Assembly (NCBI GenBank): GCA_050084515.1
Contig: CM114271.1
Span: 12,090,001 to 12,154,000 of the forward strand
DNA from: Blasia pusilla
Taxonomy: Eukaryota
Length of the DNA stretch: 64,000 nt
Direction: 5' to 3'
The translations under genes were made by a program, and so were the position numbers. Positions 10,764 to 55,400 of this stretch are shown piece by piece; positions within the stretch are counted from its first letter, which is position 1; each line of letters opens with the position of its first letter. Under the pieces are notes generated by a model, which saw nothing but the letters and a program-made list of their open reading frames with translations, did no database searches and was not told where the DNA came from.

Positions 10764-10984
10764 AAATTATGGTGAGAAAGACGTTAAGGATGCCTGCCTG
10801 CTGAATCTGTATTCCATCACCAACCACGGCAATTGAAGGTCCCAATCTCCTAGGTAACCTCTCTACAAGCCATACTTACGTAGTCCTCTCTTCATCGTCT
10901 GCACAACCCGCTACGCTAGTCCATCCGCCTCAGGATGATCTCGCGAAGTAGTGCGGTGGTTGATTAGTTCCTGATCACACAAGG

Positions 10985-11980
10985 TGTCGTGCGCCTACTC
11001 TCCTTGAACGTTAGTCTTGTTGTTGCAGAAGCGTGCGTTCAATAGGTCACGCTCTCAACGCTGATCTGCATCCAAACACGCACTCTGGTTAGTCGGGTCT
11101 TGGATCAATCAGTGGGCTAACTTTCCGAGTTCTCGTCTTGGTCTCTCATCAAGCTCACCCTTCCTAGTTTTGCGATTTACAACACGAGCAAGTCTTGCAA
11201 GACTTGGGACATACTTTCTGGTCGGTTTCGCGCCTGGCCATTCCAACTTTTTGATGGACATCCAATGAGTCCCTAACCGAGACTCGCATGAAGTGAATCT
11301 CGGATTGGAATCCAAGTGTGGCGTACAAAGTCTACTCCCTTGGATCAAGTTTGGGTTTTGAGTTCCAACGCCAAACTCTCGTTCCATCCCGTGCCTCTGA
11401 GATGCCGTTTGGCGCTCAAAGTGGGGATTCGTGTTCCAAGACATCTTGGAGAGACTCCTCCCTCACTAGTACTTCTAGGGATCTCTTAGGTCCCCCTACC
11501 TTTAGGGAAAGACACCGGGGCCTCTCCAATTGGCCCTCAACCCGATTGCTCTCACAGTGGTTTTCGGCCAATATCTCAGTCTGTACTTCTGCGTTTGATG
11601 AGATCTTTGGTGCATTGGAAGCGTCTCAAGATAAGCTCTTACTTGTCTTGAACGTATCTTGGGACAAAACGTTATGGTCTGAAACACAGTTAATTCCCCA
11701 AACGCTAGTCGTGCTCCAAAATTGGTTCTCACCTCCTTGGCAACCAACCTTCCAAGACTCAACTCATTTCAAGTCTTGGTTCGCATTTGGTCTAGGTTTC
11801 CTGGTTGTGACCACTAACGCACGAAACACACAAATGTGTTCCGCGTTTTGTCTCTTGGAATTTTCCAAGAGACCTTTCCAAATGCCTCTCCAAAGCGCAA
11901 ACATCGCAGCGTGAGTCCACTTGGGTTATGATATTCCGCTTGGCGCCTATTTGGTGTTGTTTGTTATGAGGGTCGTGACA
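10985..11980 (-). mobile_element. Solo LTR of the chromovirus family at 54570-61899, inserted in the E1 integrase
   Basis: TG...CA ends; perfect 5-bp TSD CAAGG (10980-10984 and 11981-11985); homologous to 59335-61899. Confidence 0.92.
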
Positions 11981-14100: not shown

Positions 14101-14539
14101 GGATCCCTACATCATACCCAAATCATGCATACTAAATGCAAAACAACTCCTATAACTCCTAAGGAATTGGTGTATCCGGCACCACTCTCCTCTTGTCAAC
14201 TTAGGGCCCATATATGGCTCCCAAGTCTCCATCGTGACTATGGTAGGACTCTCCAGCGCGGATGTCGGTGGTTGCTATCGTGCAACCCCGTCTCGGACAA
14301 TAGAACTCTCATCTCCACGTGTAGTACCCGAAACCACGCTCAATGCTATGGCTATCATCTCCTGGGGTACCTGCAAAACATCCCAAGAAGTCCAAAGGTG
14401 TCTCTCCCAATCATCCCTGGTATGTCGATCTCCTTGGGTCTCCTCCCCAGCCACTGCCTCAACCGTCTTGGTAGGCATGGGGATCACCAACGCAACAACT
14501 GTGATCTGTCGCATCCTCAAACGACGCTGCTCAGCTACT

Positions 14540-15133
14540 CCTAAGCTGAAAATCATGTCAAGCAGTTCACGTCCATTGCCTGACCTAAGAATGACGTTGT
14601 GATGCCTCTGATAGTGACGGTACTGCCGTCACTCCTATGGGGAATCCCATCGCTCGCTCTTGCTCATCGGCGTTAGGCTCCACCAACCTCTGTACTTGGT
14701 CATCCCAAACCAAGCCAAGTCCGTCCTCCTTGAATGCATAGGAAGCGGGAAAACTCACCAATGTGGCAAAGGCTGCCCGTGGCCTGCCAATCCTCTTGAC
14801 CACAATCAACCGTGGTTGATCATCTAGCCTCATTGTCTATGATCGACGGCCCAGATCCAATATAGAATCCACCAAAAAATCGAAGGGGCGCTCCACTCTC
14901 GCATATGCCCTCCGCAACACCTCGTGTGGTACCTAGTTGGTCTACCAAAGACGCGGGTGATGTGCTCATGAACCCACACTCGCCGCATCCAACAAAACTG
15001 CCGGGCCGATCCATGCGCGCATTTGATATGCACTTGTCACCAGACGGGACCTCAAATCGCCCAAAATCAATACATTCTCCATAATGTATACTGGAGGACG
15101 AGACTGATGCTCCCGAAATTGTCGCAAGATCCG
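14540..15133 (-). pseudogene. E1 DNMT3-like C5 methyltransferase, C-terminal half (motifs VI, VIII, IX, X)
   Basis: VYIMENVL; GS*AHHPRLW*TN; EQERAMGFPIGVTAVPSLSEASQRH. Confidence 0.8.
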
Positions 15134-15496
15134 TGTTGTGCGCATACACATCGCTACACAACATACATCGTTGTCACCGAACACACACACAAACACGCAC
15201 AATCCCATGCTAACTCATGGCATCCAAACAACGAGACAAGAAGTACGAAAATATCTCCAATGTTGTTGTGCGTATACACATCGCTACACAACATACATCG
15301 CTGTCACCGAACACATACACAAACACGCACAATCTCATGCTAACTCATGGCATCCAACCAACGAGACAAGAAGTACCAAAATATCTCCAATATCTCCAAT
15401 ATTTTGGTACTTCTTGTCTCGTTGTTATCGTGCGGGTTTGTGTGTGTGTTCGGTGACAACGATGTATGTTGTGTAGCGATGTGTATGCGCACGACA
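15134..15496. repeat. Y-Y-inverted-Y foldback built from the E1 terminal Y repeat
   Basis: Direct copies at 15134-15261 and 15264-15391; inverted, internally deleted copy at ~15399-15496 ending in CA. Confidence 0.85.
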
Positions 15497-37908: not shown

Positions 37909-40900
37909 AAAATTTTTTTTAACAGTCATTTTAACTTAATTTTTAATAATTTTATTAGTTAAAAAAATTTAATATAATTTTTTTCAAAATTTTCAACACG
38001 AATTTTCAAAATGAATTGGAGGGTCTCTCCAATAATAACAAGTGTGCGCCCCCCTCTCTCTAGCAACATATTTAAATACTTTAGGAGTAATGAAACATGT
38101 TGGTTTTGCAATAAAATGGCGACTTAGTGGAGTGAAATGCCGAGAATCGATGGGCTACATTTGTATATGCGATAAGGTTACATATGTAAATCGAAGTGAG
38201 ATGTGGATAAAACATTTTTGTAACAAAAAGAGTGGTGAATATGTATTTTGGAAATAAGATTCCTGCGGTTCAACGTGAGTGAATATTGAAGTAAGGTATG
38301 TAGCCACTAAAAGGTAGTGGTTCTATGGCATGTAGCCATTGGAACGTTGTGGTATTGTGGATTTGAAGTATTTTCCAAAAATGATTATTATGAAGTAAGC
38401 CTTCATAAATGGACTAGAAATACCTGGATTTAAAATAAAATAAAATTCGAAACTAAAATTTAATCATGGAAAAGAATTCATAGTTATGAAAATAATCAAA
38501 GAAAATGCATTTTTCATTTGATCACTAATATTCAAATTAAAATGATCTTATTTAAGTTCATACCATATATTTATGGTAATTTTTAAAAATCTAAAATTAT
38601 TTTTTAACCCATTTAATTTAAATTATTTTTCCCATATACTATTGGATAATTTTCAAATTCTTTTATAAATCATTTACATACATATGAGTATAATTACTAT
38701 ATAAGTCGTGAGGATATGATCGTATTGGTTTGGTAAGTCATAAAAATGAATTTAAATCAATGAAGTCATAATTTGAGTCATTTTGTACACAAGTCATTAA
38801 ATGGTGAGTTATAAAAACCAACTGTCTTATATGGATAGTTAGTCTAGATATGGCTGAGCAGAGACGAATGCGAGTGTCATCCATGCCGTGACGTCCACGA
38901 GTTAGCGCATTGCCTACAGGATCTCTAGAGGCATTGGCTGGGGATGAGATGAGGGAAGATAGGCACCCATGGACTTCTTGGGACGTCGTTCGAGTAGAGA
39001 GTGAGAAGGCAGCTAGAGTAGCATATGTTCATTTTTCAAGTGTGGAGCATGATGTGGGAGGTCAGAGAGGAGTAACTCTAGCGGAGGTGGCTAGGATTGC
39101 TACATAGAAATCAAAGCCGAAGGTTGTGTTCTCTTCGAGTGAGGTCACGATGGAGACTTGGCAGCTTGCGATAAGTCTCGAGTTGACAAAAGGAGAGAGA
39201 CGGCAGATGTATACATAGGTTTGTGAGAGGGCATGTGGGTTGTTTTGCCTGCAATATGAGAGACTTGGGTACTTTGAAGTCTCCCGCGATACGAATAGCT
39301 AGATTTGGCTAGTGATACGCCAATCTTTCGTCGATCCTACAGGTATTCTGACATGGAGCAAGCCTTGATTCTGAGTAGGAGTCAAGACTTCTGGGAGGCA
39401 GGATTGTTAGAGTTATTGCATGGGGAGTATGCGTATGCCACAATCACACCAAAAAATAAGGATATATGGCAACTAGATGGATAGATGGATGTGTGGAGAT
39501 TACCGTCCTATCAACCTAAAGATGAGGTCAGATCGGTACGCCATGCTTACTCCTGCGGAGATCTTTGATGCGGTAGGGCATGCAAAGATATTGATTACTT
39601 TAGATCTCAGTGCTGGCTATCATCAACTTCCTATTAGTGTGGAGGACAGGGAGCAGACAAGATTTTGGGGGACAGATCATATCAAGAGATATTGTTTGCA
39701 TCAGTGGCGGTTCTTAGCATTTGGGTTGAAGAACGCTCCTGTGGAGTTCCAGAGAGTGAAGGATAGGATTCTGGCTAGCTTTGATTTTGTACGATGTTAC
39801 ATAGATGATATTCTTATCTTCAATTCCTCGTCCGAGAGCATGAGCGACACCTGGAGAAGGTGTTTCAACGATTGCAGTTACATGGACTGAAGTTACATCT
39901 GGGAAAGTGCAGGTTCTTTCAAGAACAGATCGAGTACTTAGGACACACCATAGATCTAAGTGGGTTAGGTGTTCAGCTAACGAAGGTGGAGGCTATTGCG
40001 CAAATTCCATGGCCTATAGATGTGAGTCAAGTCGGAGCATTTTTAGGACTAGCAAACTTCTATCGAGGATGTGTCAAGGGTTTTAGTGCGATGGTGAAGC
40101 CTTTGAGCTTGTTGATTAGACTTTATCAAGTTTGGCATTGGGGAGATGATGAGGAGCAATCATTTTAGGAGCTCAAGGATAGGTTGATGTCCTCATCCAT
40201 TCTACAGAGATTGGTTATGGGTCGTCCATTCTAGTTACATACGGATTGGAGCATGTTGGATTAAGGAGTGATGCTTACTCGCAGAGATAACGAGGAGAGG
40301 GAGTTTTTTGTGGCTTATGTGAGTTGATCGAACAACATTGTAGAGACAAAGTACAATTCCTACAAGAGAGAGTGCTTGGCTGTAGTATGGGACGTGGCAC
40401 ATTTTAGATGCTGTCTATTCGGGAATCCTTTCACACTTATCATTGATCATCAACCGTTTAAATGGTTGATGGAGTCCGACAAGCTGATGGGGTAGCTTTC
40501 CAAGTGGACTCTATTACTACAATAGTACTAGTTTGAGATGGTTCATAGGCCAACTAGTTGGCTAATCCAAGATGCAGATATTTTGAGTCGCAACCCATGC
40601 CCGAGTCAGAGATACGACATATATAGGAGCTCGATGGCACGAAGAGAGTGATGAGGAGATGGTGCCTGCTTGGCACAAATCTGTCTTTCTTTATTGCTTG
40701 ATTATGTCAGATCAGTAGCAGGTGGTGACTTTAGTGGTGGGATCAAATGATGAGTCTCAAGATCCGGAGGTCAATAAGGAGGCGGCAAGTAGTCGTGATA
40801 TCCATGGCGATGTGCACGTGGAGGTTGTGGAGTTTCTATGGAGTGGCATCATAGCGAGCACAATGAATAATACTAGGGAGCGGGATCGGATCCTATAGAG

Positions 40901-41291
40901 AGGTTCACGTGGGAGGGAACACACATTTTACTGGTATGGGGAGATGGTAGGGTCCGAGTGGTGCCTCATCCTTCCCATCGAGGTTTCATACGCATACACA
41001 TCGCTACACAACATACATCACTGGTCACATCCACACCACACAACACCGATCTTCCCCACACACGGGTAGATCCACACATGTACAAAAATCAACTCATACA
41101 TATACATCGAGATCACACAACTCTCATGTGAAAATAAAGAGTAGTAAAAACGGCACACCCGGTCTAAAACTCCACTCCTCAATCTACATTGACATATTGA
41201 GCCTTGTCCACCCTGTGCTATCAAGAAATCCAGACGCTAGCACCTAGTCCTAACTCACACACACGAGCAAGAATGGTACTCCAACGGCCCT

Positions 41292-44200
41292 ACATGAGAA
41301 AGATGTCAAGGGGCTGGTGGGAATTCATTGTTTGCAGGTAGGCAAGCGAGTTGCCTCGGTAGGGAGCCCCTGGATATGCTGGTTGGCATTTTATTGTCGT
41401 TTTTTCGTTCAAAAAGTTGTGCGCGGAATCGCTGTTCATTTTTCTTCTTAGATCTTGCTGGTGCAGGTGAAGAGGGACAATAGCAGAGTGGGAGTCGAGC
41501 AAGAGTGCTTGGGTGCAGCGCAAAATAATGCTGGAGCGACAAGAGAAAGGTGCACAACGGGAGTATAGAGAAAGAAGCATATTGAGAGCTTGTAGCCGCC
41601 AAGGGGCTAGGGTTGCAAAGGTGTCTAGGGCTAGGGTTAGGTCGCAGGTGACGGCGAGCTGAAGCCGGGGCGGAGGCAGATGGAAGGCGGAATAGGGCGG
41701 ACAGAGCTGAGGGCGGCGAGCTACAGAGCCGTAGCCCTTGGCCGCGACCCTTCCCTTCCCTTCCACGTTACCCCCCCTCCCCCCCCACGTGGTTGGGAGC
41801 ACCATGTTCGGCGCCTTCCACATCAGAGAGACATACGTGGTACGGGGCAGACATGGTTGGTAGGAGCAGACGTGGAACGGGACAGACGTGGTCGGTAGGA
41901 ACAGATATGGTAGGAGCAGGGCGGCGGATGTATTAGGGGCCAAGGTGGACGTAGTAGGATGACATGGTAGTGGCGTGGGAGACGTGGTAGACGGGAAGCC
42001 ATGGTTGGGGTCGGACGTGTTTGAGTTGAGTTACGTAGTGGGAGAGCGTTGGTGAGACTTGGTATTTCACGAGCATGGTGGGATTTGCGACGGGAGTTTG
42101 GCACTTATTACGAGTCAGTTGGGGTTCGACTCATTAGTTCTTCACCGCTTGGGATTTGTGAGGATTGTGATGGAGACACACTTGTCGATGCTGATGGGTA
42201 GTCTGCATCCATTGATGGGAAGTTTGATGCATGTCGAGGAAAGTGTTGTGTTGCGGAAGTTGCCGTACCACATGGAGGAGTGAGTGTTGACGATGGCGTA
42301 GGTTGGAGGGCGTGATCATGTCACCCATTCGAGTCCCTTTTCCCACGCTTATCTTATATGATTGAGAGTGCTAGGTATGGGGTAGTTGTTAGGGCTAGAT
42401 GGGTGTAGCGATGGTGACGAGTGTAGTCTCCATGCATGTGTAGCATGTATGTGGATATACGGTGGTTGCCAAGTAGGGATCACCCTTTTTAGTCAAGAGT
42501 GTCGGTAGTTTAGGTGAGTTAGTTGGGAGGCTCATGGTGAGCCCGAGTGTTGAGTGTGCGTGAGGCCAGGTGTGTCATTACGGGATTACCATTAGCGTAG
42601 GTGAGCTAGTGAGGAGTGTGGGAGACTCTTGGTGAGTCTAAGTGATTGAGCGGGTGAGACAGGGTTGTCATCACGGCGTTCTTCTTGTGTTCAAAAGAAC
42701 GGGGTAGTGCGAGCAGTAGTAGTGGTGTGACACGGAGTGGAGTGAAATACCGAGGGGTTACGAGTGAGGAGCTACCTCGAATTCCAGCCATGGTTGGATC
42801 GTCATCACTGAACAACAGGTTTGGTGACGAGATCGCAGATGGAGACAATGTCACTTGGAAGGAGATGGACGACATGGGCCACCGGGGCATGCGTTGTTTC
42901 TCGGGTGCAGTGAGCACCATCGACTTAGATGACTTCATCCAAGAGTTCGACACGTGGTGCGATTTCCAGGAGATATGGACCCCGACACGGTTCAACCCTT
43001 TCATGGCATGGAAGGGATTATTCCAGCACTTGGAGGGTCTTCCGATGGATGATTACATAGAGTTCCAATCTTTATACTCTATAGAGATTGATGCCTGGAG
43101 GGTGTATTGGGCTCCACGGTATGTGTCCACTAATGGCCGCAAGGTGTATGATGGGATAGTGAGAGTGGAGAGACCTACTCCATCAGCCCAGGGACTAGAT
43201 GGAGAGGATGGCAGTGAGAGTGGTGAGATGCCAGAGACCTCACATGGTAGAGGACCATCGAGTTTCAGTCCTACGATGGAGTTCTTCTCACAGTTGGGGA
43301 GGAGCTACCAAGGCGTGTTGATAGACAAGCTGAAGAGTCTACAGGATTTTCATCGGAGATCACGTGAGAGTCTGAGGGAGGCGTTCATACGCAGGCGACG
43401 GTTGATTGTTTCCACATATGGGGTGAGTGAGGCGTAGTGAGTGCAGTATTGGTACGGGGTGTTGGATGAGGAGCTATGGAGGAGAGTTCGGGATGCGATG
43501 TTGCTTCACACAGCAAAGCCCATATTGAAGGTGATATTCGAGTTGTCTGAGTGGGTAGAGCTCAACATGAGTGAGGAGGAGGTGATGACCATGGGATTTT
43601 CATGGGATTCGACATATTGATGAGTAGGAGTAGACCCACAGGTGCCCCAGTATGCACCAATACCACGAGAGTGGGGTGGTGGGCCTAGAGAGCAGGGCGG
43701 GTATCGTGAGCCCATGAGGCAATGGTGCGTACCGACATATGTTTCCCAGTAGAGACCAAGATTGGCTTGTTGGACGTGTGGTGGGCCACATAGGCACAAA
43801 GACTGCCCAGAGCATGGTAGAGGGCCTAGGGTGCCTTCGAGTGTTCAGGAGCCACCTAGGATGGCCCCACCACAGTTGCAGTGTGATCATTGTCATCGAT
43901 ATGGTCACACTAGGGATAGGTCTTTTGATCTTCGCCAAGCGGTACGTCCAGAGGTAGGCAAAGGGCCTGGGGGCGAGAGAGTTGGTGGAGATCGAGGAGT
44001 TGATGATCGTGGTGGTAGAGTGCCATCATCACTCAGGGGAGATGGAGGACGTGCAACTGATGCAGCGCTCCTCACTCGCATCGATCAGTTGGAGCAGAGG
44101 ATTGCTGCCATGACAATGATGTAGCCAGTGATAGGCACGGAGCCGAGAGTAGTTAGTGTGGCTCCAGCCTCCACGTCGTATCAGGATACGGGGGAGGACT

Positions 44201-44420
44201 ATACGGGGTTGAGGTTTATGTGCAGTGCAACTCAGGTTGAGGCTGCTGCGGTGGTGACTTGGGGTGCTGCGAGAATAATCGAGCCATCAAGAGGTGGGGT
44301 TTAGATTGACCCACAGGAGGGGACCGATGGGTGACAGGCCAGGGTTCCCTAGTCGTTTACATTTTCAGAGGCACTACATACACCGTCGATGGTGCCTCGA
44401 CAACCAATAGTACACACGAG
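41292..44420 (+). mobile_element. Inverted duplicate of the E2 leader and gag, inside the E2 3' repeat block
   Basis: Reverse-complement homologue of ~50520-53642; gag 42673-44124 with CWTCGGPHRHKDC and CDHCHRYGH knuckles. Confidence 0.88.
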
Positions 44421-47400
44421 TAGTAAAAAAGGCACTCCACCCCTCAATCTACATCGGCATATCAAGCCTTGTCCATCCTGTGCCATCAAGGAATTTAGAC
44501 GCTAACATCTAGTCCTAACTCACAGACACGAGCAAGAATGGTACTCTAACGGCCCAACATGAGAAAGATGGCTTGGGAAAGCCATCTTCCTACCTTATAT
44601 AGGGTTGGGAAGAGCCAAAAGGCTCTTCCTCTAAAAATAGCTATCCTTATAGTAACCTACGCGCACAGGTTACCAAGGGCGGATGACCTTCTCAACAAGT
44701 CACTCGGCTGTGAAAGACCTCAACAAGAAAGTTTGTCAGAAACGACGTTCCTGACACAATGGACATATCCTCAACCTCATCTCATACCTCGGGACAAAGT
44801 TACACTCAAGACAATCCGCTGGCTCCTACGCCCTATCCACGATAGATCTCGGCCTATCAACCACTCAGATGTGACAACTATCGTGCGCATACACATTGCT
44901 ACACAACATACAGCGCTGGTCACATCCACACCACACGACACCGATCTTCCCCACACACGGGTAGATCCACACATGTGCAAAAATCAACTCATACATATAC
45001 ATCAAGATCACACAACCGCCCCCCTAGCTGGCAGTTGGACCCCCCAAACTCCAGACAAAAAATATCACATCTCCCTAACATGACTTACTACCCTATACAC
45101 ATTTCAAACATATCCATCGTCACGTGGAAACTACATCAAGAGGAGGGTCAGACATGACATATGCCACCATCGAGAACAACCATCACATGCCAACATGGTG
45201 GGTGAACCCCTTGTAGATCCGCACAACATACACCTCAAGCTTGCAAGTGCCACTGCCAAGCTCGGATCTAGTGTCCCGTCCATGTTTGTAAGGTGACATG
45301 GCGCACAATTGTGCACAAGATCCTTCCAAACCATACCATCCCATCCCTCCAACATGAGGACTCGGGTTGGTAATACCTCGTGCACACATAGGATTGTGCG
45401 CCCTACAGTGACATCTAGCGTCGTGGGTGCGACCTGTTGCACATATACATAATCTCTAAGATGAAACCTCCTAATCCTTGGACGATAACCTCCTCCACAA
45501 ATGGTTGCGTACCTCAATGTATCCCTATGCTGAGCAATAGCTAAGTTCTCAAAGGACACGAACATAACTCTACAAAAAATCTCCGCCCTCTAAGAACATG
45601 CTTGTACCCACACATCTGAATCATCAAGATCTAACACCTCTACCATGTCACGTCGAATAGTTGCAGGTAAATCTGGCTCTCTCCAAAAGAGTTAACAATA
45701 TGATGAAAATGACGTTGAGGATGCCTTTTGACTAGATAACCCATAGCCAATCAGGGCAACTGTAGGTCCCACTCCCTCAACTATCCCCGTTGCAAGCCAT
45801 ACTTGCGCAATCCTCTCTTCACCGTTTGTACTATTCTTTCCGCCAACCCATCCCCCTCAGGATGATCTCTCGATGTGATGCGGTGATCTATTAGCGCCTG
45901 ATCACACAAGGCGTGAAAATCTCCCCTGAACGCGGTACCCTAGTTAGTCAACACCTTTGCCGATGCACCAAAGTGACTAAGCACACGATCTAGAAATGCA
46001 TAAGCTGTTCTCTCGCTCGCCTTGTCTGGTAGTGCCACCAACTCTATCCACTTGGAGAAATGCTCCACCATAACCAACATGTACCTGTGATGACGCCCCG
46101 TCAAAGGCAAAGGTCCCGCGAAGTCTAAACTCTACCGATAACCTAAACCCATAATTGGTAAAGAATGTAACTGTAGAGTGGGAGCATTGAAGGATGCTTG
46201 CACTCGGTCACATACCATACATCTAGCCACAAACTGCTCTACCCTAGTATGTATGCCGCTCCACCAATACTGAACCTCGAGTAAGCTGTAAGTACGCTTT
46301 ACTCCAAAATGCCCCAACTCCTCATGGGCATGTCGCACTACACGTGCTTGCTGGGAAGGATGAGGTACCACTTGTATCCTACCATCTCCCCATACCCACA
46401 AAATATGAGTCCCCTCCCACCTGAACCCTCTGGGTCTCTATAGGATCCGATCCTCTCGCTATGACGCCAATACGCAAGAACTCCACAACCTCCACGTCGT
46501 CATGGATATTAGGACCACATGTCGCCTCCTCACTGACCTCCGGATCCAAAGACTCATCATCTGACCCCACCACTGGAGTCACCACATGCGGCTAACAAGC
46601 CATAATCAACCAACAAAGATAGGCAGATGCTTGCCAAGTGGGCATCATCTCTTCATCACTCTCTTTGTGCCATCGAGCTCCTGTGTCGTCTCTCTGACTC
46701 AAACATGGGTTACGACTCAACCCATTCGCATCTTGGTTCAGCCGACCTGGCCCGTGAAGCACCTCAAACTCATACTCTTGTAGTAATAGAGCCCACATGG
46801 TAAGCTTTCCCGTAAGCTTGTCGGACTCCATCAACCACCTCAACCGCTGATGATCAGTGATAAGTGTGAAAGGGTTGCCGAATAAATAGCTCCTGAAATG
46901 TGCCACAGCCCATACTGTAGCCGAGAACTCTCCCTTATAGGAGCTGAACTTTGCCTCTCCAATATTTTCTGATTGGCTCGCGTTAGCCACAACGAACTCC
47001 CTCTCCTCGTCATCCCTCTGAGTAAGCACAGCTCCTAGACCCAACATGCTCCAATCCGTATGTAATTGGAGTGGGCGACCCCTAATCGGTCTCTGTAAAA
47101 TAGGTGAGGACATCAACTTGTCCTTGAGCTCCTAAAATGCTTGCTCCTGATAATCTTCCCACAACCAAACCTGATCAAGTCTCGTCAACAAGGTCAAAGA
47201 CCTTGCGATCGCACTAAAACCCTTGACATACCGTTGATAGAAGTTCGCGAGTCCCATAAACGCTCGGACTCGACTCACATCTATAGGGCATGGAATTTGT
47301 GCAATAGCCTCCACCTTTGTCTACTAAACACCTAATCCACTCGGGTATATGGTGTGTCCCAAGTACTCAATCTGCTCTTGAAAGAATCTACACTTGCCTG

Positions 47401-48439
47401 GATGTAACTTCAGTCCATGTAACTGCAATCTCCAAAACACCTCCTCGAGGTGTCGCTCATGCTCCTCAACCATGGAATGGAAGATAAGAATATCATCTAT
47501 GTAACACCGAACAAAATCCAAGCTAGCCAGAATCGTATCCATCACTCTCTGAAACTCCGCAAGCGCATTCTTCAACCAAAATGGTAAGAACCGCCACTGA
47601 TACAAGCAATCTTTCCCAAACCGATCTATTCCCTAGAATGTTGTCTTCTCCCTGTCCTCCAACTTGATAGGAAGCTGATGATAGTGAGCACGAAGATCTA
47701 AAGTACTGAAGATATTTGCATGCCCTACCGCATCAAAGATCTCCTCAGGAGTAGGCATGGCGTACCGATCTGACCTCGTCTGTCGGTTGATAAGACGGTA
47801 GTCTCTACACATTTGCCTATCTGTCCAATTGCCATACATTTCCTTCTTCGCCGACATGACTGTGGCAGATGCATACTCCCCATGTGATAACTTCACAAAT
47901 CCTGCCTCCAACAAGTCATGACTCCTCCTTTGAATCAAGGCTCGCTCCATATTAGAGTACCTGTAGGGTCAACGAAAGATTGGCGTGTCACTAGCCAACT
48001 CAATCCGTATCCTGCAACCCTTCAGCGTACCCAAGTCTCTCATACTGAAGGCACAACAACTAGCTTACTCTCTGTCGCCCTCGTCGTATAAACTTGAGAC
48101 CTATCACAGGCTCCCAATTCTCCATCGTGACCTCACTCGGAGAAGACGCAACCTCCGGATTTGGTTGTTATGTAGCAACCCTAGCCACCTCCGCAACAAC
48201 CACTCCACTCTGACCCTCCTACATGATGCTCCACATAAAAAAATTAACATGTGCTACTCTGGCCGCCTTTGCAGTCTCCGCTTGAACAACGTCCCAGGGA
48301 GTCCATGGGTGCCTATCTCTCCTCGTCCCGGCCCTAGTCAATGCTTGTACAGACCCTGTAGGCAATGCTCCAACTCGTGGACGTGACAACATGGATGACA
48401 CGCACATCCGTCTCCGCTTAGCCATACCTAGGTTGATTA

Positions 48440-49434
48440 TCCATGTGAGACAGATGAGCTCCATTGCCTGCCCCAATACCTATCTTCGTGATGCCTCAAT
48501 CATACATGGCACCGCCGTAGTACCCGTAGCAAACCCCATGGTGCGCTCGCACTCATCTGTCATAGGCTCCTGCAATGTTTGAGTCACCTCATCCCAAATC
48601 ATGCCCAACCCTCCCTGACAAAAGGCATGGAATGCTAGGAAGCACACCAACATAGGTAAGGTTTCCCTCAACTCCCCCACCCTATTGGCTATTGCCAACG
48701 GTGGTCTATCATCCCGCGTCACCACCTGAGATGGACACCTAAGCCCAAAATAGCATCCAATGTGAGATGTGGTGCTCTTTGAACTCCATCATATGCTCGA
48801 CTCACTACCTATGATGGTATCAGGTTTGTCCACCATAGCCATGGATGATGGGCTGTGATCCAACTCTCGCTGCATCTAACAACACAACAGTTCCTAACCA
48901 AGACCTCACCCGATGCATACTCGTCATCACACGTGCATGAGTGTCTCCCAACAATGGCACGTTCTCCAAAATGTATGCCGGAGAACATGTTTGATTCTCG
49001 TGCAAGTGTCGCACTACTTGTAGCATCTCCCAAAATATCCCTGACCTCAGATCCTGCAATCCAAACCCTCGACCAGCTGATGAATGACCCTGACATGGCC
49101 ATCCAACAATCACCAAATGAATGGTGCCAACTCTATCCAGATCCTACGCCCCCACCAAAGAAATATCGACGGGTAGTGTATGTCGATATCCCCATACTGC
49201 AGATACCAGCAACAACTCAAGATACCTCTGGACCAATCTCGCCACATGATGTAATAATACTTGCCGCGCAGTCTCATCTCTCTCTACATAAAGGTACTGA
49301 TGCACCCGTATGCCCGCCTGCAACACTGCAGCTAATCCGGTGCTAATCCCTCCGAAGAGATGTAACACCCTAACACCCTCCTCTGGACACTTCCACACAA
49401 TGGGTGTGGTATCCAGTGGTGTCAACGTCTCCAT
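48440..49434 (-). pseudogene. E2 DNMT3-like C5 cytosine methyltransferase domain between protease and RT
   Basis: Motif I VRVLHLFGGISTG, II YLYVE, IV VGWPCQGHS, VI YILENV, VIII AHHPWLWWTNL, IX-X ECERTMGFATGTT...RR*VLGQAM. Confidence 0.9.
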
Positions 49435-52400
49435 TCTAGGAGCCCAATTTCCACCTGACCCTTGCTGCTACGAGATAAAGGCATGACTCCACGCCTACCT
49501 CATGAGGTCGTCGACACTCCTTTATAGCTCTCGAGTCGTACCCCACAATGGTGAAGAGGTTTCACCAACATGGGAAGAGACACCTGCCATGGCCTGTCTC
49601 TCCGTGGGACTATCCGCTACTAGGACATCCTCCGCATGTGCATTCCCCTCCAACAACTCTCCTGGCTAGCTAACACTTCTTGTGAAAGCTTCCAATGCGG
49701 TTTGAGACTCGTCTCGTGGTCGACCACCTTGTCCGCAAATTGCACGGGTAACTGATTCATCCGCCCGTCACCTGACCGCCACCCTGGCCGATAAGCAACA
49801 GTCTCCTCCCAGAAGTCAAGGATGAATCCTAGGGGATATAGCACTATACTCCCCACCAACACATCGTACGACTTAGCTGGTGTCATAATTGCACGTGTGC
49901 ACACCATCGCACTATCCATCGCATGCTCTGACTGGACTCAAAAGCTATCTCCTGTCGAGTCATATACTGTGTGGGTGACACACCCGCAATCAAGGTCAGT
50001 ATATGGAAGGGACAAGGCTCAATGTCGGCCTTCCGTAAACCCTACGCTAAACACGTCGCCTTCCCTAACATCAAGGGCTGCACTCCTGAATCAAGTAGGA
50101 CATGCTGCGGGTGGTACACTATTCTTGTCGGATTAACCAAGCAAAATACTCCAGCTCGGTTATCCAATAACACCACGCCAGGTGTCACCATGGCCTGCTC
50201 TATGGTCGATCGAGCTGACATATCTACCAACTTTGCCGTTGCCGCATGCCATGATTCTGTCGGGGACGTCTCAAGCACTTGCTCCGAGGGCAAGTCCACC
50301 ACCTCCTCAACTACCTTTGAATGAGAGGCAGTCATCTCTCCATGCTCACACAATGTGGTGGCTAGCCAAAACACCTCGGCTGGTCCAACTCCCAACGTCG
50401 TCAACTCTTTGGCAAAAACTAATGGAGCCTGGCTCACCCTGGTGGCCAACTCCAACACTGTGGTCGACACTGACTCCACTCAAGCAGGCATAGGAGTTGC
50501 CACTCCAGCTGACCTGTAGGCACCAAAGGTCGTCGAGGCACCATCGATGGTGTGTGTAGTGCCTTTGACAATGTGAACGACTTTGGAACCTTGGTCTCCC
50601 GCCCATCGGTCCCTTCCAATGGGTCAATCTCAACTCCACCTATTGATGGCTCACTGCCTCTCACAGCACCCCAAGTCACCATTGTAGTAGCCTCAACCTG
50701 AGCCGCACTACACATAAACCCCATACTAGCAAGATCCTCACTCGGTCAGGGTAAGAGATAGAAGTTGGAGCCACACTAGCTTCTCTCGGCTCGTGCCTTC
50801 CCTGAGATGCATCATCGTCATGGCAGCAATCTTGTGCTCCAATTGATCGATGCGCGAGAGAAGCGCCGTCTCTGATGCTCCCGCTCCATCTCTTGTGGTA
50901 GGTGGTGGTCCTCTACCACCACGTCCAACAACAACTCCTCGACCTCCTCCAAGACGACCTCTTGGCCTACCTCTAGACGTGCCTCTTGACGAAGGTCAAA
51001 ACATCTATCCCTAGTGTGACCATATCTGTTGCAATAGTCACACTGGTATTGTGGTGGGGCCCTCCTCTGTGGTTCTTGAGCAATCGGAGGTGCTCGTGGT
51101 CCTCTCCCATGTTATGGGTAGTCTATCTGCCTATGGGCCCCTCCACACATCCAATAAGACAACATCGGTCCCTTCTAGGCAACATGTGTATGTACGGGTT
51201 GTTGCCTCGTAGGCTCATGGTACCCGCCCTGCTCTCTAGGCACATTGGTCCGCTCCCATGGTACCGGTGCTTGTTGTGGCATTTGTGGGATCACCATCTC
51301 TCGTGGACCTGTCGACTCTCGAAAAAAATCCAGCGGTCACTACGTGCTCCTCACTCATGTTGAGCTCAATACGCTCAAACAACTCAAAGACCACCTTCAA
51401 TATGGGCTTCTCTGTGTGAATCAACACCACATCTTCGACTCTCCTCCGTAGTTCTCGGTCCAGAACTCGGTACCAATACTAGACTCACTGCGCCTCAATT
51501 ACTCCATAAGTAGCAATGATCAGCCTCCTCATGCGCATGAATGTCTTTCTCAGACTCTCACCTGATCGTAATTGAAAATCCTTAGACTCTTCAACTTGTC
51601 AGTGCGTACGCCCTAGTAGCTCTTCCCCAACTGTCGGAAGGACTCCACTGTGGGACTGAAGCTGGGTGGCCCTCTACCACCAAAGGTCTCTGCCACATTG
51701 CTTGTCTCACTGCCCTCCTCTCCATCTAGTCTCCGGGCTGATGATGTGGGTCTCTCTCCTCTCACAATCCCATCATATGCCTCACGATCACTAGTGGTCA
51801 CATACCCAAGAGCCTAATACATCCTCAAGACATCAATCTCTATTGAATATAGTGATCAAAACTCCATGTAATCATCCATCGGGGGACCCTCCAAGTGCTG
51901 GAACAACACCTTCCATGCCATGAAAGGGTTGAACCGTGTCGGGGTCCGTATCTCCTGGAAATTGCACCACGTGTCAAACTCCTCGATGAAGTCATCTAAG
52001 TCGATGGTTCCCACTACACTCGAGAAACGATGCATGCTCCAATGGCCTATGTAGTCCATCTCTTGCCAAGTGACACTGTCTCTATCTGCAATCTCATCAC
52101 CAGACCCGCTGTCCAATGATGACGATCCAGCCACGGATGGAAGTCGAGGTAGCTCCTCACTCGTAACCTCTCAGTATCTCACTCCACTCCGTGTCACACC
52201 ACTACTACTGCTCGCACTACCATGCTCTTTCGAACCCGGGAAGAACGCCGTGATGACAACCTTGTCTCACTTGCTCAAGCACTCAGACTCACCAAGAGTC
52301 TCGCACACTCCTCACTTGCTCACCTATGCTAATGGTAATCCTATGACGACACATCGGCCTCACGCACACTCAACACTCGGGCTCACCATGAGCCTCCCAA

Positions 52401-55400
52401 CTAACTCACCTAAACTACTGACACTCTCGAGTCAGACACGTGACCCCTATTCGGCAACCTCCGTATATCCACAGACATGCTACACATGTATGGAGACTAC
52501 ACTCGTCACCATTGCTACACCCATCTAGCTCCATCAACTACCCGATACCAAGCACTCTCAATCACACAAGATAAGCGTGGGAAAAGGAAATCGAATCGAT
52601 AACCTCCAATCTACGGCACCGTCAACACTCACTCCTCCATGTGGTATGGAAACCTCCGCAACACGACACTCTCCTCAACACATGTCAAACCTCTTATCAA
52701 TGGATGCAGACTACCTGTCGGCATCGACATGTGTGTCTCCATCACAACCCTCGCAAGTCCCAGTCGGTGAAGAACTAACGAGTCGACCCCCAACCGACTC
52801 GTAATAACTGCCAAACTTCCGTTGTGAATCCCACCATGCTCGCAAAACACCAAATCTCACCAATGCTCTCCCACTACGTAACTTAACTCGACCACGTCCG
52901 ATCCCAACCATGGTTGCCTATCTACCACGTCGCCCCTGCCTCTACCACGTCGCCCGCACCACTACCATGTCACCTTACTACGTCCACCTTGGCCCCTAGT
53001 ACATCCGCCGCCCTGCCCCTACCACATCTGCTTCTATTGACCACGTCTGTCATGTATCACGTTCGCCCCTACCGACCACATCTGCCCCATACCACGTGTG
53101 TCCCTCTTACCACGTCGGGAAGGCACCGTCGATGGCGCTCCCAACCACGTGTGAGGGGGGAGGGGGTACATGGAAGGGAAGGGTCGCGGCTCTACGGCTC
53201 ACCGCCCCTGGCTCCGTCCGCCTCTGCCTCATCCCGCCTTCCATTCACCTCCACCCCGGCTCTGACTCGCCATCACATGCGACCTAACCCTAGCCGCGCC
53301 TAGCCCTAGACGCCTTTGCAACCCTAGCGCCCCAGCGGCTACAAGCTCTCAACGTGCTTCTTTCTCTACACTCCCGCTCTGCGCTATTCTCTTGACGCTC
53401 CAACAGTACTCTGCGCTACACCCAAGCGCTCTTGCTCGACCCCCACTCTGCTGTTGTCCCTCCTCATCCGCACCAACAAGATTTGAGAAGAAAAATGGAG
53501 AGTGCTTCCGCGCACAGCTTTTTGAACGAAAAAATGACAACAAAATGCCAACCAGCATATCCAAGGGCTATCCACCAAGGCAACCCGCTTGCCTACTTGC
53601 AAACAACAAATTCCCACCAACCCCTTGATATCTTTCTCATGTAAAAATAAAGACTAGTAAAAACCGGCACACCCGGCCTAAAACTTCACTCCTCAATCTA
53701 CGTCGGCATATCAAGGCTCGTCCACCTTGTGCTATCAAGGAATCCAGATGCTAGCACCTAGTCCTAACTCACACACACGAGCAAGAATGGTACTCCAATG
53801 GCCCAACATGAGAAAGATGGCTTGGGAAAACCATCTTCCTTCCTTATATAAGGTTGGGAAGAGCCAAAAGGCTCTTCCCCTAAAAATAGCTATCCTCCTA
53901 GTAACTTGCACGCACAGGTTACCAAGGGCAGATGACCTTCTCAACAAGTCATCCGGTTGTGAAAAACCTCAACACAAAAGTTGTCAGAAACAACGTTCCT
54001 GACACAAGAGACCTATCCTCAACCTCATCTGACACTTCGGGACAAAGTTACACTCAAGAAAATCCGCTGGCTCTTATGCCCTATCCACGATAGATCTCGG
54101 CCTATCGGCCACTCAGATGTCATAGAGCACATGTAGTGCAACATGTCCACGAGGATTTGGGCCATTTTGGAGTAAAACGTACTTACAACTTACTCTAGGT
54201 TCAATAATGGTGGGGTGACGTGCATACTAAGGATCGACAGTTTGTAGACATGTTCATGATATATGACCGAGTGCGAGCATCCTTCAATGCTCCCACTCTA
54301 CATTTGCATTCTTTTCCGGTTATGGTTTTAGGTTATTAGTGGAGTCAAGACTTTGCACGACCTTTGCCATTGACAGGGTGTCATCCTAGGTACGTTTGGT
54401 CATGGTGGAGCATTTCTTCAAGTGGATAGAGTAGGTGGCACTTCCGGACAAGACGAGAAAGGGAATGGCGTATGCATTTCTAGATTGTATGCCTAATCAT
54501 TTTGGTGCACTAGAGGAGGTGTTGATTGACCAAGATACCGAGTTCAAGGGAGAGTTTCAGGCCTTCTGTTTACTAAACTTTTCTAGTTACAACGGGTTAT
54601 TGGCCCAAGCTTCCCGGTCACAAGTTATGTCCTTTGCTTCACCATGTACTAACGTATGTGCCTATCTTGCATCCATTTGAAGTCTCAAAACGCCTCTTGC
54701 GCGTGTTCAAGATTTGCCTCCGCAATCCAAGTTGCCTCTTTCACATGGCAGCCTTTCTACTTGACCAAGTACTCATACTTGGTGGCTCTATGTCTCGAAT
54801 GTAGAATGCTCTCCACTTCAAACTCTGGTTCCTCATTTCTGATGACCGGTTGTGGTCTCAACACAATCCTTTGTTCCGGACGCACATTGTCTTGAAGACA
54901 CTTCTTCAATAATGACACATGGAAAGTCGGGTGAATATTGAACTTGTTGGGAAACTCCAATATGTACACATCCGCAAACGGCTTTGCCTTGATCACATAC
55001 GGTCCAACATACTTGGCTGAAAATTTCGTGGACAATTCCTTTGGAAGAGTGAGATTCTTTACACTCAACCACACTTGCTTCCCAACTTGGAAACTCACTT
55101 GGTGCAGAATTTTGTTAGCATGCTTCACGTACATTAGTTAAGCCTTGGAAAGAAAACTCCTTGCTCGCTCTTGTCGTTCTTGCATTTCCACAAACGAACA
55201 TTTTGCCGAGTTATGAGTGTGTGACGATGTAGTGCCCCTCGAAAGGGCCAAGTCAAGAGGCCCTTCTGGTTCTCTTTGATACGCCAGAAGAAACGGAGAT
55301 TCTTCGGTTGCAGAATACTTGGTCAAGTTGTAACAATACTCAGCCATACTAAGCCACTTTGCCCAATCTCTTTGGTCCGCACTCACGTAATTCCTTAAGT

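What the first reader, a model, noticed from the sequence alone, without database searches (positions are those of the whole stretch)
48440..49434. DNMT3-like cytosine methyltransferase embedded between protease and RT
Seen: C5-MTase motifs in canonical order without introns: VRVLHLFGGISTG (I), GWPCQ (catalytic PC), ENV, AHHPWLWWTNL, ERTMGF...VLGQA. Known: these resemble DNMT3 (IRVLSLFDGIATG, AHRARYFWGNL, EMERVFGFP...LLGRS), not the permuted DRM order. De Mendoza et al. 2018 reported DNMT capture by retrotransposons in charophytes and dinoflagellates. Inference: the domain is released by the protease and packaged with RT; its presence in what looks like a land-plant genome would extend the known range.
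Basis: partly seen in the sequence, partly recalled or inferred. Interest (0 to 1): 0.88.

Follow-up and report, generated by a model that had tools for sequence, protein, structure and literature searches.

The report
Decayed plant retrotransposon carrying DNMT3-like methyltransferase
This is a dead copy of a jumping gene (a Ty3/gypsy retrotransposon) that carries its own DNMT3-type DNA cytosine methyltransferase between its protease and reverse transcriptase, a rare arrangement described in print for a green alga and found here in a family whose closest relatives sit in liverwort and peat-moss genomes.

Summary
On the minus strand, 49698-48279 encodes a C5 cytosine methyltransferase domain (PF00145, E 1.5e-7). 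Its motifs run in the unpermuted order. It lies between an aspartic protease and RT-RNase H-integrase-PHD in a 9.7 kb LTR element (44434-54120; LTRs 439 bp, 90% identical).

This copy is dead: it has three in-frame stops, at least two frameshifts and a lost RxR motif. A second, divergent copy (15151-14377) and a third remnant (38820-38993) lie in the same window.

The closest proteins (63-69% identity) come from Marchantia, Riccia, Calypogeia and Sphagnum. Intact relatives are nearest to DNMT3A/B/C by sequence and by predicted fold. The DNMT domain evolved under purifying selection between subfamilies (dN/dS about 0.16-0.19, with dS saturated).

One new detail is a conserved in-frame stop, TAG or TAA followed by CAA-C(C/T)N, between the DNMT and RT. 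It is present in both window copies and in 40 of 41 related metagenome loci. This implies ORF1 = Gag-PR-DNMT, with RT-RH-INT made by read-through.

The kind is known (Gypsy-DNMT3 of Klebsormidium, de Mendoza 2018). I found no report of it in bryophytes. Verdict: new member of a known kind, moderate interest.

The parts
53683..54120 (-). 5' LTR of element A
   Evidence: 439-bp direct repeat with 44434-44872, 394 of 439 identical (90%). It starts TGACATCTGAGTGG.
52171..53682 (-). Leader between the 5' LTR and gag, about 1.5 kb
   Evidence: Position. A leader of about 1.15 kb is also seen in metagenome relatives L040, L010 and L051.
50503..52170 (-). gag, decayed, with a CX2CX4HX4C zinc knuckle at 51042-51016 (CDYCNRYGH)
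   Evidence: Collinear tblastn with Marchantia P0003 residues 13-501; motif position. Relative L030 has PF00098 at E 1.2e-7.
49728..50467 (-). Aspartic protease (LLDSGVQP 50098-50075; YDVLVGS 49868-49848)
   Evidence: tblastn with P0003 residues 514-760. That P0003 region aligns with the Pfam-detected protease of P0039. Pfam itself finds no protease in the window fragments.
48279..49698 (-). DNMT3-like C5 cytosine methyltransferase domain, pseudogenised (core motifs 49365-48456)
   Evidence: PF00145 at E 1.5e-7. 49-55% identity to P0003 residues 773-1246. Stops and frameshifts.
48162..48170 (-). Conserved junction stop with its context, TAA-CAA-CCA, between DNMT and RT
   Evidence: The same site in copy D and in 40 of 41 metagenome loci carries TAG or TAA.
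47324..48073 (-). Reverse transcriptase (YIDD at 47503-47480)
   Evidence: PF00078 at E 3.3e-20 on 47632-47324; tblastn with P0017.
46592..47131 (-). RNase H
   Evidence: PF17917 at E 4.3e-27.
45736..46437 (-). Integrase (H2C2 zinc domain plus core)
   Evidence: PF17921 at E 7.5e-17 on 46437-46132; tblastn with P0067 residues 1870-2101.
45134..45589 (-). Integrase C-terminal extension with a PHD finger
   Evidence: PF00628 at E 1e-6.
44434..44872 (-). 3' LTR of element A
14377..15151 (-). DNMT remnant of a second, divergent copy (element D). Motifs VI to X are present (ENVLILGD 15079-15056, EQERAMGF 14665-14642). The N-terminal part is cut off near 15214.
   Evidence: tblastn (33-55% identity); ORFs.
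14269..14277 (-). Junction stop of element D, TAG-CAA-CCA
10164..14223 (-). RT, RNase H, integrase and PHD finger of element D
   Evidence: PHD E 8.9e-8; rve E 3.9e-11.
38819..40977 (+). Third fragment: DNMT tail (38820-38993), then RT and RNase H, 79% identical in DNA to 48456-46352
41291..44405 (+). Inverted partial copy (leader plus gag), 80% identical to 53643-50528

Best explanation
The window holds a decayed insertion of a Ty3/gypsy-type LTR retrotransposon. It spans 44434-54120 on the minus strand. Its order is LTR, leader, Gag, protease, DNMT3-like C5 methyltransferase, RT, RNase H, integrase with a PHD finger, LTR. It belongs to a family abundant in liverworts and peat mosses.

In working members of the family, Gag-PR-DNMT is one reading frame. 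That frame ends at a conserved UAG or UAA followed by CAA-C(C/U)N, and RT-RH-INT continues in the same frame. I infer that RT-RH-INT is made by occasional stop-codon read-through. The methyltransferase would then be made in the same amounts as Gag, cut free by the element's protease, and used to methylate cytosines de novo. The likeliest substrate is the element's own new cDNA or integration site.

Shown: the domain identity, its order in the element, its recurrence, purifying selection on it, the conserved stop, and the death of this particular copy.

Inferred: the read-through, cleavage by the protease, enzymatic activity, and the substrate.
For: Domain identity and class:
- PF00145 hits the window fragment.
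- A PDB sequence search with the intact relative P0003 found 27 distinct sequences at E<=0.01. Of these, 25 were DNMT3A/B/C (best 1.7e-8), followed by M.HaeIII at 1e-3 and a plant DRM at 2.6e-3.
- The profile search with A2 gave DNMT3A 4.2e-14, DNMT3C 1.4e-10, DNMT3B 1.7e-10, DRM 5.5e-7 and HaeIII 6e-5. No DNMT1 was listed.
- The AlphaFold model of relative P0020 has pLDDT 85.6. All the printed top Foldseek PDB rows, through rank 50, are DNMT3A/B/C, with target-normalised TM about 0.8 against the catalytic-domain chains.

Order in the element:
- Collinear tblastn runs from gag through PHD.
- Marchantia P0017 has DNMT 460-529, RT 833-919 and RNase H 974-1098 in one protein.
- P0067 has CCHC, protease, DNMT, RT, RNase H and integrase in one ORF.
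- The protease is assigned through P0039. PHD fingers are found in copies A and D.
- LTRs: window A; direct repeats of 307-342 bp flank L040, L010 and L051.

Recurrence:
- Two further copies lie in the window.
- 61 metagenome loci were fetched.
- Named proteins come from 7 bryophyte species.
- In the tree, the window sequence sits inside a bryophyte clade of 31 rows (SH-aLRT 100).

Selection: DNMT dN/dS is 0.16-0.19 between subfamilies and 0.33-0.97 within the family.

Conserved stop:
- Present in window A, window D and L030/L055/L056.
- 40 of 41 loci carry it (28 TAG, 12 TAA), and 39 of those 40 are followed by CAA-C(C/T)N.
- The stop and the next five bases are invariant across 9 sequences from 4 lineages, while the following roughly 35 bases vary.
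- Five Marchantia proteins end 61-63 residues after the DNMT domain.
Against: - This copy cannot make the enzyme: it has stops, frameshifts and a lost RxR motif.
- Most of the 41 loci belong to one family, so the 40 of 41 count is largely shared descent. Independent support comes from about five lineages only.
- The main metagenome family has CAA-CCC, which departs at the sixth base from the tobamovirus-type CAR-YYA context (a motif I recall from memory).
- No convincing RNA structure follows the stop (consensus -7.4 kcal/mol, little covariation).
- Distant relatives such as P0067 have no stop at all.
- The only experimental test of a Gypsy-DNMT3 domain (Klebsormidium, expressed in yeast) detected no methylation, which its authors called inconclusive (PMC5890265, section 10 read).
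- No Klebsormidium, host DNMT3 or DRM sequence was available for a tree.
Confidence: 0.8

Rival explanations
1. The DNMT is a host DNMT3 gene or pseudogene that happens to lie between unrelated transposon fragments in a nested, rearranged repeat region.
For: The window is full of nested and inverted transposon fragments. The domain is broken.
Against: The same gag-PR-DNMT-RT order recurs in a second copy in the window, in single Marchantia proteins, in the near-intact locus L030 in one frame, and in dozens of metagenome loci flanked by LTRs.
Confidence: 0.02
2. The conserved stop is not a read-through site. RT-RH-INT would be expressed another way (splicing, reinitiation, a separate transcript), or the stop is simply the ordinary end of an ORF1.
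For: There is no strong downstream RNA structure. The main family's context is CAA-CCC, not CAR-YYA. Gene predictors in Marchantia bridged the site with an intron, as the P0017 sequence suggests (my reading).
Against: RT continues in the same frame immediately after the stop in 40 of 41 loci and in both window copies. The stop and the next five bases are the only invariant bases in an otherwise variable linker. In-frame stop read-through between gag and pol is an established retroelement strategy (PMC2194720, abstract seen in the search listing).
Confidence: 0.25
3. The domain is kept for something other than DNA methylation, for example RNA methylation or a non-catalytic DNA- or chromatin-binding role.
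For: KnitGypsy-Dnmt3 showed no DNA methylation in yeast (PMC5890265 section 10). The authors discuss RNA methylation for other transposon DNMTs (section 11).
Against: The catalytic positions are nearly invariant. C92, Q93, N136, R175 and R177 are conserved in at least 90% of 57 sequences with 14% mean column identity, and E135 is invariant. In the 17-sequence alignments PC-Q, E and R-R are invariant. The fold and nearest sequences are those of DNA enzymes DNMT3A/B/C, not DNMT2.
Confidence: 0.12
4. The bryophyte elements acquired their DNMT3 independently of the Klebsormidium Gypsy-DNMT3 elements, rather than descending from the same element lineage.
For: De Mendoza et al. describe DIRS-like repeats for KnitGypsy-Dnmt3 (PMC5890265, Fig. 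4 legend). The elements here have plain direct LTRs. No Klebsormidium protein appeared among the 29, 120 and 120 hits listed.
Against: DNMT-bearing gypsy elements with related DNMT domains are spread across green plants, including chlorophytes. That favours an old shared lineage. The searches list only the best 120 hits, so the absence of Klebsormidium is weak evidence.
Confidence: 0.25

Closest known systems
KnitGypsy-Dnmt3 (Gypsy-DNMT3) of the charophyte Klebsormidium nitens, de Mendoza et al. 2018 (PMC5890265)
   Same: An unpermuted, intron-less DNMT3-type domain sits inside the polyprotein of a Ty3/gypsy element. There are many copies. The DNMT is under purifying selection (their Ka/Ks < 0.2; here 0.16-0.19 between subfamilies).
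   Different: The nearest relatives here are land plants (liverworts, Sphagnum). The repeats here are ordinary direct LTRs, not the DIRS-like arrangement stated in their Fig. 4 legend. A conserved in-frame stop separates the DNMT from RT, and 'readthrough' does not occur in the main text of that paper.
Green-algal gypsy elements with the order RT-RNase H-DNMT-integrase-PHD (e.g. proteins named from Monoraphidium neglectum and Haematococcus lacustris)
   Same: Related DNMT domain (about 35-42% identity), Ty3/gypsy backbone, and a PHD finger after the integrase.
   Different: The DNMT lies between RNase H and integrase instead of between protease and RT. It forms the outgroup clade in the DNMT tree. 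I did not examine these for a junction stop.
SymbioDIRS-Dnmt3 of Symbiodinium (PMC5890265)
   Same: A DNMT3-type domain in a retrotransposon Pol, shown to methylate CG de novo in yeast (section 10).
   Different: The backbone is DIRS, with a tyrosine recombinase. The element here has a DDE integrase (PF00665, PF17921).
Cellular DNMT3A/3B/3C
   Same: Closest solved structures by sequence and by predicted fold. Motif order is the same and the target-recognition region is small.
   Different: No PWWP or ADD domains are attached. The enzyme is encoded as part of a Gag-PR-DNMT frame. About 20-23% identity in the structural alignment.
Leaky-stop gag-pol expression in retroviruses and tobamovirus-type read-through contexts (UAG-CAR-YYA, recalled from memory)
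   Same: An in-frame UAG or UAA is followed by CAA-CCA or CAA-CUA, and the polymerase continues in the same frame.
   Different: The stop lies after the protease and the DNMT, not directly after Gag. The largest family has CAA-CCC. Read-through is untested.

Membership tests
C5 cytosine DNA methyltransferase (Pfam PF00145) | Profile match above the curated cut-off | tested here: met
   31.6 bits against a cut-off of 22, E 1.5e-7, on window 49143-48820. Relatives score 27.7-54.3 bits.
C5 cytosine DNA methyltransferase (Pfam PF00145) | Motifs I (FxGxG), IV (PC), VI (ENV), VIII (RxR), IX and X all present and intact in an open frame | tested here: not met
   In the window copy, motifs I, IV, VI, IX and X are recognisable. 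Motif VIII reads AHHPWLWW instead of AHRxRLWW, and the frame is broken by 3 stops and at least 2 shifts. All motifs are intact in relatives such as P0003 and L030.
DNMT3 subfamily | Closer to DNMT3 than to DNMT1, DNMT2, DRM or bacterial enzymes by sequence | tested here: met
   PDB searches: DNMT3A 4.2e-14, DRM 5.5e-7, HaeIII 6e-5, a tRNA DNMT2-type enzyme 5e-4, no DNMT1 listed.
DNMT3 subfamily | DNMT3-like fold | tested here: met
   Tested on the intact relative P0020, not the window copy. pLDDT 85.6. The printed top Foldseek PDB rows are all DNMT3A/B/C, E about 1e-19, target-normalised TM about 0.8 against the catalytic-domain chains.
DNMT3 subfamily | Unpermuted motif order (unlike DRM) | tested here: met
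   Order I, IV, VI, VIII, IX, X along the minus strand. The DRM match falls on the C-terminal part of the DRM chain.
DNMT3 subfamily | Placement within the DNMT3 clade in a phylogeny with named DNMT3, DRM, DNMT1 and DNMT5 references | not testable with these tools
   No named reference sequences could be obtained. The tree holds only transposon-type sequences.
Ty3/gypsy LTR retrotransposon | Order PR-RT-RNase H-INT, with gag upstream | tested here: met
Ty3/gypsy LTR retrotransposon | Flanking direct long terminal repeats | tested here: met
   44434-44872 and 53683-54120, 90% identical. Pairs of 307-342 bp starting TG and ending CA occur in L040, L010 and L051.
Ty3/gypsy LTR retrotransposon | Target-site duplication and a recognisable primer-binding site | tested here: inconclusive
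   The 5-bp flanks differ (CTCTA and CTACT) and lie in rearranged repeats. I recognised no tRNA-type primer site.
Gypsy-DNMT3 (KnitGypsy-Dnmt3) | DNMT3-type domain inside a gypsy polyprotein, in multiple copies, under purifying selection | tested here: met
Gypsy-DNMT3 (KnitGypsy-Dnmt3) | DIRS-like arrangement of terminal repeats (Fig. 4 legend of PMC5890265) | tested here: not met
   Simple direct LTR pairs in window A and in 3 metagenome loci. The inverted 3.1-kb repeat in the window is a second partial copy, not a terminal repeat.
Gypsy-DNMT3 (KnitGypsy-Dnmt3) | Sequence kinship with the Klebsormidium copies | not testable with these tools
   No Klebsormidium sequence surfaced. The paper's supplements are closed.
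Programmed stop-codon read-through site | In-frame stop with a conserved 3' context, and the downstream frame open and homologous | tested here: met
Programmed stop-codon read-through site | Measured read-through | not testable with these tools
   Needs a reporter assay or ribosome profiling.

The most novel reading that the evidence does not exclude
A lineage of gypsy retrotransposons that is abundant in liverworts and peat mosses, and related to elements in green algae, makes a working DNMT3-type de novo methyltransferase as the C-terminal part of Gag-PR. It lies upstream of a conserved leaky stop, so the enzyme is produced in Gag-like excess over RT and integrase. Together with the PHD finger on the integrase, this would let the element set the methylation state of its own new copies or insertion sites. 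Transposon-encoded de novo methylation would then be a feature of land plants, not only of one alga.
Probability: 0.35. Interest if true: 0.7.

Novelty: new member of a known kind. Interest (0 to 1): 0.5.

Why it matters
DNA methylation is the host's main weapon against transposons, so a transposon that carries its own de novo methyltransferase reverses the usual roles.

The printed cases I could find are a charophyte alga and dinoflagellates. Showing that the same kind of element is common in liverworts and Sphagnum, and related to elements in chlorophytes, moves the phenomenon into land plants. It also moves it into Marchantia, a tractable model where activity, targets and effects on the methylome could be tested.

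The conserved stop codon suggests how the enzyme's dosage is set relative to RT and integrase, and this is directly testable.

The copy in this window is itself a fossil and has no function.

Tried and rejected
- Own genome: none is held.
- Sequencing runs: 5 DNA runs listed, all with small shares (0.07-0.20). No RNA holder was listed and organism names are coded. I did not lay the reads, so this says nothing about expression or habitat.
- Protein atlas: it returned only generic PF00145 clusters, the nearest being a 57-member eukaryotic (Streptophyta) cluster. It added nothing further.
- Cluster look-up of 10 distant relatives: all come from unnamed metagenome or run assemblies, so no taxa were gained.
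- First structure prediction, with 10 close sequences, failed (pLDDT 38.9). It was replaced by a 57-sequence alignment.
- RNA structure after the stop: a weak consensus. Its one conserved 6-bp stem overlaps the conserved peptide TWEP.IGPK, so it cannot be told apart from coding constraint.
- DIRS-like repeat structure: I considered it because of the large inverted repeat 41291-44405 / 53643-50528. I rejected it because that repeat is leader plus gag of a second partial copy, and intact relatives have plain LTRs.
- Target-site duplication and primer-binding site: not found.
- The in-frame TAG between PR and DNMT in L030 is not shared by Marchantia P0003. I take it to be a mutation, not a signal.
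- Pfam found no protease in the window or in P0003. The protease rests on the DSG motif and on BLASTP homology to P0039.
- Within-window dN/dS between copies A and D was not computed. At about 50% amino-acid identity, synonymous sites would be saturated.
Full report
**1. Observation**

Motif I (LHLFGGISTG) is at 49365-49336 and the catalytic GWPCQG at 49104-49087. ILENVP is at 48972-48955, AHHPWLWWTNL at 48853-48821, ERTMGF at 48548-48531 and VLGQAMEL at 48479-48456.

I scanned ten ORF fragments against Pfam. The fragment 49143-48820 matched PF00145 (E 1.5e-7, 31.6 bits, cut-off 22). The neighbours 47632-47324 and 47131-46592 matched reverse transcriptase (3.3e-20) and RNase H (4.3e-27). The fragments with motif I and motifs IX-X gave nothing on their own.

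The copy is broken. There are in-frame TAGs at 49146-49144, 48482-48480 and 48221-48219. Motifs I-VI, VIII and IX-X are in three different frames. The family's AHRxRLWW motif reads AHHPWLWW.

**2. What surrounds it**

tblastn with four guide proteins is collinear along the minus strand. Marchantia P0003 (1278 residues, Gag-PR-DNMT) runs from 52029 to 48279. Marchantia P0017 continues through RT and RNase H to 46424. Metagenome P0067 and P0047 continue through the integrase to 45116.

Pfam confirms the integrase zinc domain (7.5e-17) and a PHD finger (1e-6) at the C-terminal end. Pfam does not see a protease. However, the window has LLDSGVQP and YDVLVGS in the stretch that matches P0003 514-760. 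That P0003 region aligns by BLASTP (whole alignment E 6e-66) with the Pfam-detected protease of P0039.

A 439-bp direct repeat, 90% identical, lies at 44434-44872 and 53683-54120. The sequence just upstream of the 3' copy resembles the same position in metagenome relatives.

Element A is therefore 44434-54120. Its order is LTR, a leader of about 1.5 kb, gag, PR, DNMT, RT, RNase H, INT-PHD, LTR. I found no target-site duplication.

**3. Other copies in the window**

- A second, divergent copy on the minus strand has the C-terminal two thirds of the DNMT (15151-14377, 33-55% identity). RT, RNase H, integrase and PHD follow, down to 10164.
- A third fragment (38819-40977, plus strand) starts in the DNMT tail.
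- The 3.1-kb inverted repeat 41291-44405 / 53643-50528 is leader plus gag of another partial copy.

**4. Relatives elsewhere**

The 215-residue read-through of the N-terminal half (one X at the stop) found 29 longer proteins at E<=1e-3. The best were 63-69% identical. They are named from Marchantia polymorpha, Calypogeia fissa and Sphagnum.

A profile search added Marchantia paleacea, Riccia sorocarpa and Sphagnum tenellum (201 hits, 120 listed). The exhaustive search of cluster representatives gave 1596 hits at E<=1e-3, 371 at 1e-10 and 8 at 1e-30.

In a quick maximum-likelihood tree of 45 DNMT domains, the window sequence lies inside a clade of 31 bryophyte-type rows (SH-aLRT 100). Within it, the sequence falls in a set of five with Riccia, M. 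paleacea and two unnamed sequences (95). A liverwort is the best guess.

Marchantia P0017 carries DNMT, RT and RNase H in that order. P0067 carries CCHC, protease, DNMT, RT, RNase H and integrase in one frame.

A different, larger group has RT-RNase H-DNMT-integrase-PHD (P0047). Named members come from the chlorophytes Monoraphidium and Haematococcus.
- 94 show RT-DNMT-INT-PHD.
- 44 show partial versions of that order.
- 15 show DNMT before RT.
- 246 are DNMT only.
- 6 show DNMT-INT only, which does not tell the two orders apart.

This sample is biased by my queries.

**5. Which methyltransferase**

By sequence, P0003 matched 27 distinct PDB sequences at E<=0.01. Of these, 25 are DNMT3A, 3B or 3C (best 1.7e-8). 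The others are M.HaeIII (1e-3) and a plant DRM (2.6e-3).

The family profile sharpened this:

| PDB target | E-value |
|---|---|
| DNMT3A | 4.2e-14 |
| DNMT3C | 1.4e-10 |
| DNMT3B | 1.7e-10 |
| DRM | 5.5e-7 |
| M.HaeIII | 6e-5 |
| tRNA DNMT2-type | 5e-4 |
| M.HhaI | 6e-4 |
| DNMT1 | not listed |

The first structure model failed (pLDDT 38.9). A model of the intact relative P0020, built with a 57-sequence alignment, reached pLDDT 85.6 and pTM 0.81. The last 62 residues, the linker to the stop, are disordered. In Foldseek against the PDB, all the printed top rows (through rank 50) were DNMT3A/B/C, with E about 1e-19, target-normalised TM about 0.8 against the catalytic-domain chains and 20-23% identity.

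The motif order is unpermuted, unlike DRM. I could not place the domain in a tree with named DNMT3, DRM or Klebsormidium sequences, because none could be obtained.

**6. Structure of intact relatives and the conserved stop**

A scan of metagenome contigs gave 61 loci. Most are decayed. Only L030 is nearly intact. It has 957 residues of Gag-PR, then TAG, then 438 residues with PF00145 (7.6e-13), then TAG, then at least 766 residues of RT-RNase H-integrase, all in one frame.

L040, L010 and L051 show direct LTRs of 307-342 bp (91-94% identical) starting TG and ending CA. They lie about 8.7 kb apart, with a leader of about 1.15 kb. The family therefore has ordinary LTRs. It does not have the DIRS-like repeats that the Fig. 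4 legend of de Mendoza et al. gives for KnitGypsy-Dnmt3.

The second TAG of L030 is followed by CAA-CCA. The same stop and context occur at the homologous place in window copy A (TAA-CAA-CCA, 48170-48162) and in copy D (TAG-CAA-CCA, 14277-14269). L055 and L056 have TAG-CAA-CTA.

I located the start of RT by tblastn in 41 loci and read the codon just before it. That codon was TAG in 28, TAA in 12 and CGG in 1. In 39 of the 40 loci with a stop, the next six bases were CAA-C(C/T)N, and 35 of these were CAACCC.

In an alignment of nine sequences from four lineages, the stop and the next five bases are invariant, while the following roughly 35 bases vary. Five Marchantia proteins end 61-63 residues after the DNMT domain. 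P0003's end falls within about five codons of the window's TAA.

I read this as a programmed leaky stop. ORF1 would be Gag-PR-DNMT, and RT-RH-INT would be added by read-through.

Caveats:
- Most of the 41 loci are one family.
- CAACCC differs at the last base from the CAR-YYA context, which I recall from plant viruses and did not check.
- No convincing RNA structure follows the stop.
- Distant relatives such as P0067 have no stop.
- Nothing here measures read-through.

**7. Selection**

I used Nei-Gojobori pairwise estimates on codons threaded onto single-frame tblastn matches, with stops masked. There were 31 loci for the DNMT and 16 for RT.

| Comparison | dN/dS |
|---|---|
| DNMT, copies with at most one stop, within the main family | 0.33-0.97 |
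| DNMT, L030 against the main family | 0.16-0.19 |
| RT, summed per dS bin, 0.05-0.8 (76 of 79 pairs) | 0.35-0.43 |

The within-family range is what neutral decay after insertion would give. For the L030 comparison, dN is about 0.30 and dS 1.6-2.0, which is saturated, so the ratio is approximate.

The catalytic positions are nearly invariant across 57 sequences with 14% mean column identity. The domain was therefore maintained while the lineages were active.

**8. Literature**

In de Mendoza et al. 2018 (PMC5890265) I read sections 9, 10 and 11 and the searched passages. The paper reports DNMT3 in a gypsy element of Klebsormidium nitens with Ka/Ks < 0.2. It reports de novo CG methylation in yeast for the Symbiodinium DIRS enzymes. 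It reports no detectable activity, called inconclusive, for the Klebsormidium domain. The main text contains neither 'Marchantia' nor 'moss' nor 'readthrough'.

Passages of PMC12344493 and of the 2026 preprint 10.64898/2026.05.21.726589 mention transposon DNMT3 'in streptophytes' only by citing that paper.

Searches combining Marchantia or Sphagnum with retrotransposon, DNMT3, polyprotein or gypsy found nothing describing these elements. The same was true of the searches.

**9. Verdict**

The finding is a genuine but dead copy of a gypsy retrotransposon that encodes a DNMT3-type methyltransferase between protease and RT. The kind is known.

What is added here:
- The family is common in bryophytes.
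- It has plain LTRs and a PHD-tipped integrase.
- It is related to chlorophyte elements with a different domain order.
- It has a conserved stop that puts the DNMT on the Gag side of the gag-pol boundary.

How the enzyme is used remains inference. Possibilities include methylation of the new cDNA, methylation of the insertion site, or something else.

Noticed in passing
window 48170-48168 and 14277-14275; L030:4509-4517 and 40 of 41 metagenome loci: A conserved in-frame stop (TAG or TAA) followed by CAA-C(C/T)N lies exactly between the DNMT tail and the start of RT. It suggests Gag-PR-DNMT is ORF1 and RT-RH-INT is made by read-through.
   Followed up: yes
proteins P0047, P0324 (Monoraphidium), P0368/P0393/P0394 (Haematococcus) and about 140 others: A large set of gypsy polyproteins, including some named from chlorophyte algae, carries a related DNMT domain in a different place (RT-RNase H-DNMT-integrase-PHD). 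Another 15 show DNMT before RT.
   Followed up: partly
window 41291-44405 vs 53643-50528; 38819-40977 vs 48456-46352; about 62638; 9228-9851 vs 16462-15947: Several large inverted duplications and palindrome-like junctions between copies of the same element family. They could be real rearrangements or fold-back assembly artefacts.
   Followed up: partly
window 45134-45589 and 10164-10766 (minus strand): Both copies end their integrase with a PHD finger rather than a chromodomain. PHD fingers in retrotransposons are known (cited in PMC6673714, passages read).
   Followed up: partly
window 17606-19647 (minus), 55138-58256 (minus), 59830-60849 (plus): Other retrotransposon remains without a DNMT: two gypsy-like RT/integrase stretches (26-34% identical to the guide proteins), and a stretch with a YVDDLIITG motif that looks copia-like by eye (not run through Pfam).
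   Followed up: no
window 25376-27304 (plus): The longest open frame in the window (643 residues). Not identified.
   Followed up: no
L053:1789-1794: A more distant relative (44% identity, from a different metagenome) has two stop codons in tandem at the DNMT-RT junction.
   Followed up: no
window, whole: CpG observed/expected is about 0.66 for the whole window and 0.57 in the DNMT segment, with TpG+CpA raised to 1.2-1.4. Relatives L030, L040 and L010 have 0.28-0.52. This is consistent with past CpG methylation and deamination of these repeats.
   Followed up: partly
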